Positions 12,213 to 16,763 of a stretch of 64,000 nt of DNA are shown piece after piece. How positions within the stretch are numbered: position 1 is the first letter of the stretch; every line of letters starts with the position of its first letter. The stretch comes from Anolis carolinensis (lineage: Eukaryota): NCBI RefSeq assembly GCF_035594765.1, contig NW_026943822.1, forward strand, positions 25,612,968 through 25,676,967, in the 5' to 3' direction. The position numbers are program-made.

Positions 12213-15200
12213 AGCCAGATCTGGGCCAACTTCAGCCCTCCCTCCAAGAGTTTTGGACTTCAGCTCCCACAATTCCTAGCAGCCGGTGGAGGGCTGAAGT
12301 TAGCCCAGGCCCTCCCAACAGATGGCTGTCCAGCTTCTACTTAATACTGTAGTAGTAGTAGTAGTAATAATAGTAATAGCAGTAGTAGTACTAGAAACAT
12401 AGAATCCTAGACTTGGAGGAAACCGCAAAGGGCCATCTAGTCCAACCCTCTTCTGCCAGGTAGGGAAAGCACAATCAAAACCCTCCCAACAGATGGCCAT
12501 CCAGCTCCTACTTAATAATAGTAATAATAATAATAATAACAACATCATCCGAAAATACATCACATAGTCCTAAATGCTTGGGAAGTGTTCGACTTGTGAT
12601 TTTGTGATATGAAATCCAGCATATCTATCTTGTTTGCTGTGTCATACAATAAAATAAAAACAGCTCCTACTTAATAATAGTAATAATAATAATAATAACA
12701 ACAACAACATAGAATTATTGACTTAGAAGAGAGACCCCCGGGGCCATCCACCAGCCCAACCACTGTTCTTCTATGCAGGGGAAGCCCCACCAAAGCTCTC
12801 CTGACAGATGGCCGTCCAGCTCCTACGTAATAATAATAATAGAATCATAGAATGACAGACTTGGAGAGAGACCTCCGGGGCCATCCACCAGCCCAACCCC
12901 CATTCTAGGCAGGAGAAGTCCTACCAAAGCCCTCCCGACAGATGGCCACCCGACCCTTTCTTTGAAGTTGCTCTGCTGAGCAGGGAGCCATTTCTGATGT
13001 CGGCCTGTCGGCCTGCTGCCTCTCTCTTTGCAGGGAACTGGGCCTCGAAGGGGTGGCGGCCGCGACGTATCCTCCGGGGCCCCTGCACCCGCACCTGGCG
13101 CACTACCACCCGCCGCCCCGGCTGCACCACCTCCAGATCGGGGCCCTGCCCCTCATGGTGAGTCCGCTCTGCCGCCTCCGGGTGCGGAACCACGGGACGA
13201 GCCGCCCGGTCTGCCTTTTGACTCTTTCTCTGTCTTTCGCCAGGTGCCGGACATGGCGGGCTATCCCCACATCCGCTACATCTCCTCGGGGCTGGACGGG
13301 ACATCCTTCCGGGGACCCTTCCGGGGCAATTTCGAGGTGGGTGGGGGACCAGGGCTCCGAGATCGAGCGAGGGGAAATGCGTGGAGGTGTGTTTGGGGGT
13401 AATGCTTGTCCTCCTCCTCTTACTCGGCTGCAGGAATTAATTCACCTCGAAGAGCGTTTAGGGAACGTGAACCGCGGCGCGTCCCAAGGAACCATCGAGC
13501 GGTGCACGTACCCCCACAAGTACAAAAAGGTAAGCACCGCCCTTGGAAACGCTCCACGTTGCCTTTGGATCAGTATGCCCAAATACCAGGTGTTTTGGAC
13601 TCCCAACTCCCACTATTCCTGACAGCCTCAGGCCTTTTCCTTTTGCCCTGCAGCCTTCTCAGTTCCCTTGTGAAACTGGAGTTTTCCCGAGAAGCCAGAT
13701 TAGGTTTGAGAACGGAGGGAGTGAAGAATAGACTTAAGCGGCGGAGGGGCAAAAGGAAAGGGCCTGAGGCTGTCAGGAATGGTGGGAGTTGGGAGTCCAA
13801 AACACCCAGAGAGCCCTCTTTTTAATAATATTTTTAAATAGCTGCAAAGCTTTGGTCAGTGGATTAATTGTGTTCTTAGAATTATGGGCGTCGTGGGTGG
13901 CTTGGAGGGTTTGTTGACCCCCTTTGAGGGTTCGTTGTGATGTACATCAATGCTGTTGTTGTTGTTGTTGTTGTTGTTGTGATGGAAGCGCTGTAATTGT
14001 GCCTAACGAAACCCGCTCCCGTTCCGCCTGCCAATAACGTCATCTCTGCTAACAAGGTAACCCCTGATTGGTTCTCACAGAGGAAACTCCACTGCAAGCA
14101 AGATGGGGAGGAAGGGACCGAGGAGGACACCGAGGAAAAGTGCACCATCTGCTTGTCTATATTAGAGGAAGGAGAAGATGTCAGGTAATCGTCATCATCC
14201 TCATCATCCAGAAGCTTGGATTAGCGATTATCTTGGACAATAAGGAGGGATTAAGGAAAAGCCTATTAAACATCAAATTAGGTTATGATTTTACAAATTA
14301 AGCACCAAAACATCATGTTATACAACAAATTTGACAGAAAAAGTAGTTCAATACGAAAGAATGCTATGTTGTAATTACTGTATTTATGAATTAGGCACCA
14401 AAATATCACGATGTATTGAAAACATTGACTACAAAAATGGCTTGGATAATCCAGAACCTTGGATAAGCGAGTCTTGGATAAGTGAGACTCTACTGTATTA
14501 TTATGAATCAATGTGTTTCTATGTCTTCTCATTCTTCGGATCTTTTCCTCTCTCTCCAGGCGCCTGCCCTGCATGCACCTCTTCCACCAGGTCTGCGTGG
14601 ACCAGTGGCTGATCACCAACAAGAAGTGCCCCATCTGCAGAGTGGACATTGAGGCCCAGCTGCCCAGCGAGAGCTGACCCCTCCTTGGGCCCCGAGACCC
14701 CCGGCTTCCCCCCCATTTCCCCCCATAAGAGCCCTCTCCTCCTCCTCCTCCTCCTCCTCCTCGGCGCTGCAGACAACCAAAGATGATGGCATTTTGAACC
14801 CGCTCCGAATCTCCGAACCCCCTTTTGTCTGCTCTGTGGCATCCCTTGACGAAACGCTTCCGTGTATTTATATATATACATACATTATATATAGATATAT
14901 ATATAAAAAGAAGGCTTTTCCTTTCTGGTTTATTACCTTTTTTTTTTGGTTCCTATTTCCCCCTTGGTAATTATTTTTTGCATGGTTTAAAAGAGAGGGA
15001 AAAAAGACAACAATGCATTTCTTTGCACACGTTCCACGGGCTTCGTCGTGACTTCCTCCTCCTCCTCCTTCCAGAACTTGCAGGCAAGAGTTTTTTAAAT
15101 CTGATTTTAGGAAAGCGAATAGGATTGTTGTGTGGTCCTTTGATCTGATTTCTTCATTCCCCCACCCCCTAATTTTTATTTTTATTACTATTGTTAATTA

Positions 15201-16763
15201 TTACTGATCGCCATCGCCTAGTATAGTTTGACTCCTTTTCCTGACTAACCTCCAGAGAGCCCTTAATTTAATCAAGTCTTTTTTTAAAATTAGTTTATTA
15301 AATGTATGATAAAAGATGAACTTTTAAGGGAGACGATCAAAAAAATAAAAAGAGGATCGGAATATGATGGTGTTTTGAAAGACATTCTTTCATTGGGAAA
15401 AATAAAATACAAATCAAAGGCTGCTGTATAAGTATAACTCGCATTGGGCAAAACAAAAGAACAAACAAACCCACTTTGCTCCTCCGTCCGTCACCCTTGC
15501 GGATATCGACCCCTTGGTTTCCGGACGGCCGACCCATCATCATCACCGTCATCATCACCCACAAAAATGCATATTTTTATGTTCTTAAAACTTCTCAGCA
15601 CAATGCAGATATATTTGAATGTCAATATTAAAAAAAGGAAAACATTGAAGACTGCTGTCTGATTGTGTGTGTGTCCCATCGGGATTGGTCTCGTAATGTT
15701 TTGCTGCTCTAACGCACACTCAAATATTTGAATTTCGACTAAGTCGGGGTTGTAGATATATATGTGTGTGTGTATGTGTGTGTGTGTGTGTATGCACAGA
15801 TTGAATAATATGTTTGTATTAAAGTTTATATCTAGCTTAGTAGATCTGCCTTTAAAACTGCCCCTCATAGGATCCCTCCAAACAAAGCTTGCAGCCAACT
15901 ACATGCGTTCGTTCCTATGACTTTTTATTGACGGCGATGGAGAAGGAAACAGATAAAGTGGCATGCAGAAGGGGAGCGAGGAACGGCTTCCCCCTTGGGA
16001 TAGTGCAGAAGTGGAAGTACCTGGCCCCCAAAAAGGCTCCCCAAAAGCGGCCTTCGCGGCTACAAACAGCGGGCGGGCGCTGCGTACATTCATCCATACC
16101 GTTAAGCGGGCACTGCCCGTGTCTTGGTCGAAGCAGGCAGTGCTCTCCAGCCACAGATACAGCCACACAAAGCAAACATGGACCAGCCACATTGACCCCG
16201 CAGCCTCAGGAGACGGCCTCCTTCCCGCCCTTGGCTGCAGGGCCTTTCCTTGTCGGAATGCAAAAGGAGATTCCCGCAAAGTCTTTGAAACCGAAGGAAG
16301 GAAGGAAGGCCTACGTTTCTAAGGCAGGCAGCAGCCAAAGGTGCTCCGGCGGTGGCGGCAATGTGCGCCGAATGCCGTTGTGTCGCGACAAGGTCACCGG
16401 AGCAACGAAAGGCACTTGGAAGAAGGCACAAGCCGTCTCTCGCCCAAAATCCTCCTCGAGAGCACCTGGCCGTTTCCAAATTCAAAACAAGGCAAATAGA
16501 ATGGAATGGAATGGAAAACACGCTCCTCTTCCTTTGCGAGAATTCTTTTTTTAAAAAAGCGTTAAATAAAATAAATAACAATTCCTTGGTTTGGGCTTTT
16601 TGAGGCATACGGTGGGCTTTGGCTTCTTGGAGAAGGAGCGGAGACATTCGAAGGGTACGAGGCCCTGCCACCACCGCCCGGGAGTCCCATCGCAAGGCCC
16701 ACCTGCCCACCCGCGAGCGAGCAAGAGGCCTCTCCTCCTCCTCCTCCTCCCGCCGCCGGGTCA

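What the first reader, a model, noticed from the sequence alone, without database searches (positions are those of the whole stretch)
14678..16760. CCNB2 is absent: RNF111 and MYO1E are tail-to-tail with polyA signals ~100 bp apart
Seen: only 2.1 kb separates the two stop codons, with ATTAAA(+) at 15818 and AATAAA(-) at 15924 and no cyclin-like exons. Established (recalled): the human order is RNF111-CCNB2-MYO1E-FAM81A. Inference: cyclin B2 was lost or relocated in this lineage, and the convergent 3' ends could overlap on read-through.
Basis: partly seen in the sequence, partly recalled or inferred. Interest (0 to 1): 0.65.

Follow-up and report, generated by a model that had tools for sequence, protein, structure and literature searches.

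The report
Cyclin B2 missing from conserved slot
In this lizard-like genome the cell-cycle gene cyclin B2 is not where other land vertebrates keep it, so its two neighbour genes now end tail to tail about 100 bases apart; whether the gene is lost or has moved could not be settled here.

Summary
RNF111 (Arkadia, + strand) stops at 14675-14677. A long-tailed class I myosin (MYO1E by position and recall, - strand) stops at 16761-16763. The 2083 bases between them contain no N and no cyclin-like coding sequence. ATTAAA(+) at 15818 and AATAAA(-) at 15924 lie exactly 100 bases apart and straddle a sharp GC switch near 15878.

No cyclin B2 turned up anywhere in the 64 kb window. Cyclin B2 proteins from turtles, birds, crocodilians, a mammal and a fish scored no better than on reversed-sequence controls. 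Fused RNF111-cyclin B2 gene models in a kiwi, a flycatcher, the green turtle and a rodent, plus a cattle gene table, support RNF111-CCNB2-MYO1E as the older order.

The window is squamate-like but on a long branch: the best RNF111 exon identity is 72%.

I could not decide between lost and relocated, because no eukaryotic genome collection was available. A 2026 screen of 30 annotated squamates does not list CCNB2 among its 53 squamate-wide missing genes. That argues against a pan-squamate loss.

Most likely this is a clean local deletion in this lineage. It is an ordinary kind of event, moderately interesting, and unproven at genome level.

The parts
4454..5473 (+). RNF111 (Arkadia) first coding exon, N-terminal domain
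   Evidence: Pfam RNF111_N at E 2.4e-96. tblastn with named Arkadia proteins starts at 4454. The best named relatives of 4505-5473 are squamate Arkadia proteins at 72-64% identity.
14560..14677 (+). RNF111 last coding exon (RING-H2) with stop TGA at 14675-14677
   Evidence: Translation. Pfam zf-RING_2 at E 8.7e-11 on the ORF 14507-14674. Elgaria Arkadia residues 920-970 align to 14519-14674. The AG acceptor at 14558-14559 was read.
14678..15845 (+). Putative RNF111 3' UTR, AT-rich, with five candidate poly(A) hexamers (15297, 15344, 15401, 15627, 15818). Its 3' end is inferred.
   Evidence: Hexamer positions. GC is 28-43% from 14878 to 15877. TGTA motifs at 15751, 15771, 15789 and 15815 lie upstream of the last hexamer. 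There is no transcript evidence.
15818..15823 (+). ATTAAA, the distal candidate poly(A) signal of RNF111
   Evidence: It is the last + strand hexamer before the GC switch.
15924..15929 (-). AATAAA, the first candidate poly(A) signal after the myosin stop codon
   Evidence: On the - strand it is followed by a CA and then a G/T-rich stretch (print-out).
15900..16760 (-). Putative MYO1E 3' UTR, GC-rich. Its 3' end is inferred.
   Evidence: GC is 55-59% from 15878 to 16477. 15924 is the only - strand hexamer in this stretch.
16761..16837 (-). Last coding exon of the long-tailed class I myosin (second half of the SH3 domain) with its stop at 16761-16763
   Evidence: Translation. Pfam SH3_2 at E 1.9e-5 on the ORF 16764-17006. 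The acceptor was read.
17009..17183 (-). Penultimate coding exon of the myosin (proline-rich tail and first half of the SH3 domain)
   Evidence: Pfam SH3_1 at E 1.1e-7 on the ORF 16940-17362. Only 4 unnamed fragment hits were found.
18892..36100 (-). Rest of the myosin coding body (TH1 tail and motor-domain exons)
   Evidence: Pfam Myosin_TH1 on ORFs 18892-19170 and 19789-20103. Pfam Myosin_head on ORFs 20904-21272, 22877-23356, 24192-24686 and 35351-36100, the last matching profile positions 1-30.

Best explanation
In this squamate-like genome the whole cyclin B2 transcription unit has been removed from its old place between RNF111 and MYO1E, most likely by one clean segmental deletion.

Shown: RNF111 (+) and MYO1E (-) are intact and convergent. 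Only 2083 bases separate their stop codons, and nothing cyclin-like is left there.

Inferred: each gene ends at its own poly(A) signal (15818 on +, 15924 on -). The two transcript ends would then face each other across roughly 50-100 bases, at a sharp change in GC content.

Inferred: polymerases that read through would next meet signals inside the other gene's 3' UTR (16565/16570 on +; 15294, 15267, 15181, 15175 on -). That would give up to about 0.7 kb of antisense overlap.

Not shown: whether the animal has no cyclin B2 at all, with its role covered by cyclin B1/B3 as in viable knock-out mice (recalled), or keeps a copy elsewhere.
For: Flanking genes are identified and intact at their 3' ends:
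- RNF111_N at E 2.4e-96 and RING at 8.7e-11.
- 13 HSPs of Elgaria Arkadia cover residues 1-970 across 4454-14674.
- Myosin_head, TH1 and SH3 exons lie on the - strand.

The sequence is contiguous. There is no N. Apart from microsatellites, the interval has no repeat shared with the rest of the window.

No cyclin was found:
- 0 of 51 ORFs matched a cyclin family.
- The cyclin halves of 4 of 4 fused RNF111-cyclin B2 models gave no HSP better than E 7.8, while their RNF111 halves hit exon after exon.
- With 12 cyclin B2 proteins and sensitive settings, the best score was 18.9 bits in the interval against 22.3 in the reversed interval, and 26.6 bits in the window against 29.3 in the reversed window.
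- 4 further unnamed cyclin B2-type representatives scored 24 bits or less.

The older gene order has CCNB2 in this slot:
- 4 of 120 listed RNF111 relatives are fused RNF111+Cyclin_N+Cyclin_C models, from kiwi, a flycatcher, green turtle and a rodent.
- A cattle table lists FAM81A, MYO1E, CCNB2, RNF111 in that order (passage read).

The GC switch at about 15878 lies between the two hexamers.
Against: Nothing here shows that the gene is absent from the rest of the genome.

The screen by Salve et al. 2026 looked for human genes with no NCBI ortholog in all 30 annotated squamates. It names 53 genes, and I counted 53 distinct names in sections 5 and 6 part 1. CCNB2 is not among them, and 'ccnb' occurs 0 times in the main text. 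By inference, at least one squamate has an annotated CCNB2, which could equally mean relocation.

An unnamed, fast-evolving amniote-level cyclin B2-type protein exists (P0248). It could be a squamate copy.

The poly(A) sites rest on hexamers alone. Other hexamers exist on both strands.

The MYO1E name, as opposed to MYO1F, rests on recalled sequence similarity and gene order, not on a tool result.
Confidence: 0.55

Rival explanations
1. Relocation. CCNB2 left this slot through a rearrangement or a copy-and-loss event and survives elsewhere in the genome, perhaps as a divergent, GC-shifted gene.
For: CCNB2 is not among the 53 genes that lack an NCBI ortholog in all 30 annotated squamates. The unnamed representative P0248 (353 aa, 62-67% identical to turtle and bird cyclin B2) joins the amniotes on a long branch and has few AT-codon residues: its FYMINK fraction is 0.215, against 0.25-0.28 in the others. 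The window's own RNF111 is also on a long branch, so a divergent copy would fit.
Against: Movement of a single gene out of an otherwise intact block is rarer than deletion (general knowledge). P0248 has no name or origin, and its placement is unresolved. AU tests did not reject joining it to sauropsids (p 0.076), to the mammal (p 0.122) or to the amphibian-like rows (p 0.181). No squamate row appeared among the 120 cyclin B2 rows listed, though that list stopped at 680 bits.
Confidence: 0.27
2. Assembly artefact. A segment holding CCNB2 was collapsed or left out when the genome was assembled.
For: This locus is GC-rich, microsatellite-rich and unusually compact. Such regions are hard to assemble. 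No reads could be inspected.
Against: There is no N in the window. The junction at 15.8-16.0 kb is unique sequence, and only (CTC)n, (TG)n and (TA)n in the interval match elsewhere in the window. Both flanking 3' UTRs run into candidate poly(A) signals, and the GC switch sits where a natural gene boundary would be. A dropped segment would be more likely to cut a UTR or leave a gap.
Confidence: 0.1
3. A decayed CCNB2 remnant is still in the interval but is too eroded to recognise.
For: The tests only see coding similarity. 2 kb could hold short relics.
Against: The best tblastn score in the interval (18.9 bits) is below the reversed-sequence control (22.3 bits). 0 of 51 ORFs hit a cyclin family. 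The interval divides cleanly into two UTR-like halves.
Confidence: 0.03

Closest known systems
Squamate gene losses by segmental deletion with conserved flanks (Salve, Sonal and Vijay, BMC Biol 2026, PMC13005343). I read the abstract, sections 5, 6 part 1 and 14, and passages.
   Same: The flanking genes keep their order, the intergenic distance has shrunk, and the focal gene leaves no remnant.
   Different: CCNB2 is not one of their 53 genes, so this case is not squamate-wide by their criterion.
The RNF111-CCNB2-MYO1E-FAM81A gene block of other tetrapods
   Same: RNF111 and the myosin are here in the expected orientations. Coiled-coil ORFs that may be FAM81A lie beyond the myosin (Atlas lead 0.86).
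   Different: CCNB2 is missing from the block. Support for the older order: the cattle table and fused RNF111-cyclin B2 models in kiwi, flycatcher, green turtle and a rodent.
Convergent gene pairs with closely apposed or overlapping 3' ends
   Same: The orientation is tail to tail, the candidate poly(A) signals are 100 bases apart, and back-up signals lie inside the partner's UTR.
   Different: No transcript ends were seen, so overlap is only a possibility.
Cyclin B2 knock-out mice (recalled: Brandeis et al. 1998; not looked up)
   Same: They show that a vertebrate can live and breed without cyclin B2, which makes a natural loss plausible.
   Different: That is a laboratory mutation in a mammal. 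It says nothing about this animal.

Membership tests
RNF111 / Arkadia (left flank) | Arkadia N-terminal domain | tested here: met
   PF15303 at E 2.4e-96 on 4454-5473.
RNF111 / Arkadia (left flank) | C-terminal RING-H2 finger as the last exon | tested here: met
   zf-RING_2 at E 8.7e-11. The translation ends at a stop at 14675-14677.
RNF111 / Arkadia (left flank) | Best named relatives are Arkadia orthologs | tested here: met
   The first 26 rows are Arkadia or RNF111 proteins of 25 squamate entries and the tuatara. Exon-by-exon tblastn agrees.
MYO1E (long-tailed class I myosin, right flank) | Motor domain, TH1 tail and C-terminal SH3 on one strand in order | tested here: met
   Myosin_head, Myosin_TH1 and SH3 hits on - strand ORFs from 36.1 kb down to 16.76 kb.
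MYO1E (long-tailed class I myosin, right flank) | Orthology to MYO1E rather than MYO1F | tested here: inconclusive
   One search returned only 4 unnamed fragments. PDB searches with the single exon found nothing. The name rests on recalled similarity and on the position next to RNF111.
Cyclin B2 (expected occupant) | Cyclin_N and Cyclin_C coding sequence in the interval or the window | tested here: not met
   0 of 51 ORFs matched. tblastn with 4 fused models, 12 CCNB2 proteins and 4 unnamed representatives gave nothing above the controls.
Lineage-specific gene loss by segmental deletion | Flanking genes adjacent and intact, with no remnant of the focal gene | tested here: met
Lineage-specific gene loss by segmental deletion | Focal gene present at the same locus in outgroups | tested here: met
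   Fused RNF111+cyclin B2 models in two birds, a turtle and a rodent, and the cattle gene order. Tuatara and other squamates were not seen.
Lineage-specific gene loss by segmental deletion | Focal gene absent from the whole genome, reads and transcriptomes | not testable with these tools
Convergent genes with overlapping 3' ends | Mapped transcript 3' ends that overlap | not testable with these tools
   Only hexamers and base composition were available.

The most novel reading that the evidence does not exclude
This squamate lineage has no cyclin B2 gene at all. It would be an amniote that runs mitosis and meiosis on cyclin B1 and B3 alone, a natural knock-out of a core mitotic cyclin. The excision would have been so clean that the two neighbours now terminate head-on within 100 bases.
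Probability: 0.3. Interest if true: 0.55.

Novelty: new member of a known kind. Interest (0 to 1): 0.3.

Why it matters
Cyclin B2 is a core G2/M cyclin kept next to RNF111 from cattle to turtles and birds.

A true loss in a reptile lineage would be a natural test of how dispensable it is. It would also affect the use of CCNB2 as a proliferation marker in lizard and snake transcriptomics.

If the gene has merely moved, the case is a small synteny break.

Either way, the very close convergent 3' ends make a compact place to study termination and antisense read-through. None of this changes a major open question.

Tried and rejected
I replaced it with 51 separate ORFs.
- Protein search with the myosin penultimate exon to fetch named full-length MYO1E: only 4 unnamed fragments came back.
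- PDB search with the same exon: nothing at E up to 10.
- Search for squamate cyclin B2 with the turtle protein: the 120 listed rows were 12 turtle, 2 crocodilian, 103 bird, 1 mammal, 1 fish and 1 unnamed. All scored 680 bits or more. 4096 further rows at E up to 1e-30 were not shown, so the absence of squamates and tuatara from the list proves nothing.
- ESM Atlas with the turtle cyclin B2: it gave taxa only at phylum level.
- Representative search, then naming of the hits: the naming call was unavailable twice. Local trees could not place the one interesting row, P0248.
- Per-exon identity of the window's RNF111 to 58 named proteins, to find the nearest family: values of 66-77% without a clear nearest group.
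- Literature searches:
  - ccnb2 with lizard: 11 papers.
  - ccnb2 with squamat: 4 papers.
  - ccnb2 with snake: 29 papers, 20 listed.
  - ccnb2 with anol: 7 papers.
  - ccnb2 with reptil: 26 papers, 25 listed. The reptile data sets there were alligator and turtles.
  - None of these, judged from the search listings alone, reports CCNB2 from squamate data.
  - The control search, ccnb1 with lizard, gave 36 papers (25 listed). One lizard data set was confirmed: CCNB1 in situ in Pogona, PMC8682985, passages read. The silence on CCNB2 therefore carries little weight.
- One search was badly framed and uninformative.
- PMC6173279 keeps its lizard orthology table in supplements that I could not see.
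- Rfam scan of the whole window: 0 matches.
- Pfam on candidate FAM81A and downstream ORFs: nothing meaningful.
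Full report
WHAT IS THERE

The window has no N. On the + strand, RNF111 (Arkadia) runs from a first coding exon at 4454-5473 (Pfam RNF111_N, E 2.4e-96) to a last exon at 14560-14677. That exon encodes the RING-H2 finger and ends at TGA 14675-14677. A named squamate Arkadia (Elgaria, P0005) aligns exon by exon over residues 1-970 between 4454 and 14674.

On the - strand, a class I myosin with a motor domain, a TH1 tail and a C-terminal SH3 domain runs from about 36.1 kb down to a stop at 16761-16763. Calling it MYO1E rather than MYO1F rests on my recall of the protein and on its position next to RNF111. No tool named it.

The finding's coordinates, 14678-16760, are exactly the 2083 bases between the two stop codons.

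EXON-BY-EXON RULE

I searched the genes one exon or one ORF at a time. I never joined exons into a spliced protein. As a result, no full-length protein of this animal was searched or placed on a tree, and the MYO1E/MYO1F question and the exact taxon stay open.

THE POLY(A) SIGNALS

ATTAAA(+) at 15818 and AATAAA(-) at 15924-15929 are present and 100 bases apart. They are not unique. The interval holds 7 such hexamers on + and 6 on -, where about 2.7 and 2.4 are expected. 23 of 1000 (+) and 29 of 1000 (-) resamplings reached those counts.

The pair is credible because of its context:
- 15924 is the first signal the myosin transcript meets after its stop.
- 15818 is the last + strand signal before a sharp change in composition. 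GC is 28-43% in 200-base bins from 14878 to 15877 and 55-59% from 15878 to 16477.
- Four TGTA motifs lie upstream of 15818.
- A G/T-rich stretch follows the - strand signal.

RNF111 may also use the earlier signals at 15297, 15344, 15401 and 15627. Read-through on either strand would next meet signals inside the other gene's UTR (16565/16570 on +; 15294, 15267, 15181, 15175 on -). An antisense overlap of up to about 0.7 kb is therefore possible. All of this is inference; no transcripts were seen.

NO CYCLIN

- Of 51 stop-to-stop ORFs of at least 25 aa overlapping the interval, 0 matched a cyclin family in Pfam at E up to 10.
- The same tool recognised exon-sized pieces of the neighbours: the RING exon at 8.7e-11, the SH3 halves at 1e-5 to 1e-7, and myosin exons between 3.8e-4 and 1e-12.
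- The RNF111 exon search happened to return four mis-fused public gene models that carry RNF111_N plus Cyclin_N plus Cyclin_C. They come from Apteryx, Pitangus, Chelonia mydas and Scotinomys (4 of 120 listed rows). I used them as queries with a built-in control. Their RNF111 halves hit the window exon after exon. Their cyclin halves gave nothing better than one chance HSP at E 7.8.
- A more sensitive tblastn used 12 cyclin B2 proteins: 3 turtles, 5 birds, 2 crocodilians, a tree shrew and a fish. The best score was 18.9 bits in the interval against 22.3 in the reversed interval, and 26.6 bits in the window against 29.3 in the reversed window.
- Four unnamed cyclin B2-type representatives also found nothing.
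- Apart from microsatellites, the interval shares no repeat with the rest of the window, and the junction itself is unique sequence.

THE OLDER GENE ORDER

The four fused models exist only because CCNB2 lies directly downstream of RNF111 on the same strand in those birds, that turtle and that rodent. A cattle GWAS table lists FAM81A, MYO1E, CCNB2, RNF111 in that order (PMC7601430, passage read). The human order is recalled and was not checked.

WHOSE GENOME

The RNF111 exon 4505-5473 found 186 proteins at E up to 1e-3, of which 120 were listed. The first 26 rows are 25 squamate entries plus the tuatara, at 72-64% identity. Birds, crocodilians, turtles and mammals follow.

No row is closer than 72%. 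Per-exon comparison with 58 named proteins gives 66-77% with no clear nearest family. The window is therefore squamate-like but on a long branch, with GC-rich, very compact genes. No Anolis entry appears in the list. I note this only as a hint.

LOST OR MOVED

This could not be settled.

- The turtle cyclin B2 search listed 120 rows of 680 bits or more: 12 turtle, 2 crocodilian, 103 bird, 1 mammal, 1 fish and 1 unnamed. There were 0 squamates and 0 tuatara, but 4096 further rows were not shown.
- Salve et al. 2026 (PMC13005343) screened all human genes for those with no NCBI ortholog in all 30 annotated squamates but intact in frog, alligator, chicken, green turtle and human. They report 53 genes. 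I counted 53 distinct names in sections 5 and 6 part 1. CCNB2 is not among them, and 'ccnb' occurs 0 times in the main text. By inference at least one squamate has an annotated CCNB2, so a squamate-wide loss is unlikely. Their supplementary tables, which may settle this per species, were closed.
- A search of 1.84 billion representatives gave one unnamed, fast-evolving cyclin B2-type protein at amniote level (P0248). It could be a squamate copy, but its placement is unresolved and its origin unknown. The tool that could have named it was unavailable.
- Literature searches found no squamate data set that mentions CCNB2. The control search for CCNB1 yielded only one confirmed lizard data set, so the silence means little.

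VERDICT

The most likely reading is a clean segmental deletion of CCNB2 from its old slot in this lineage (0.55). Relocation (0.27) and an assembly fault (0.10) are the main rivals.

It is a new example of a known kind of event. It would be notable only if the gene is truly gone from the genome.

Noticed in passing
window 4454-14677 and 16761-36100: Both genes are very compact and GC-rich. The RNF111 coding region spans about 10.2 kb and the myosin coding body about 19 kb. By recall that is far less than in mammals. Introns are full of (ATT)n-type microsatellites.
   Followed up: partly
window 4454-14677: The RNF111 protein is unusually divergent. The best identity is 72% in the first coding exon and 66-77% over all exons, and it is no closer to any one squamate family than to the others. 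This looks like a long branch, possibly GC-driven.
   Followed up: partly
window 14727-14762 and 16723-16750: A (CTC)n microsatellite lies about 50 bases past the RNF111 stop codon and another about 10 bases past the myosin stop codon, in the same + strand orientation (96% identical over 28 bases). Similar arrays occur elsewhere in the window, so this may be chance.
   Followed up: partly
window 53700-58900 (+): Coiled-coil-like ORFs lie beyond the myosin's 5' end and may be FAM81A exons. The only support is an Atlas hit to a 'FA81A protein (Fragment)' cluster at rank 3, score 0.86, which is below the tool's trust level. Pfam found nothing.
   Followed up: partly
window 60453-60995 and 63291-63551 (+): Two ORFs read like the two halves of a PH domain at the start of a further gene. 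By recall they resemble TBC1D2B, which is not next to FAM81A in human. Pfam gave no hit. This may be a synteny break on the far side of the block.
   Followed up: partly
window, many sites (e.g. 1741-1887, 12096-12341, 24607-24893, 54197-54472, 58861-59118, 62626-62823): Recurring peptide strings in the ORF listings point to at least two dispersed SINE-like repeat families in the introns. None has a copy in the 14678-16760 interval.
   Followed up: no
public proteins P0038, P0050, P0051, P0085: Public annotations of a kiwi, a flycatcher, the green turtle (older assembly) and a singing mouse contain gene models that fuse RNF111 to cyclin B2. These are probably read-through prediction errors.
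   Followed up: yes
protein P0248 (unnamed representative): A 353-aa cyclin B2-type protein of unknown origin sits on a very long branch among the amniotes and has a GC-shifted amino-acid make-up.
   Followed up: partly
window 1-64000: No Rfam family reaches its gathering score anywhere in the window.
   Followed up: yes
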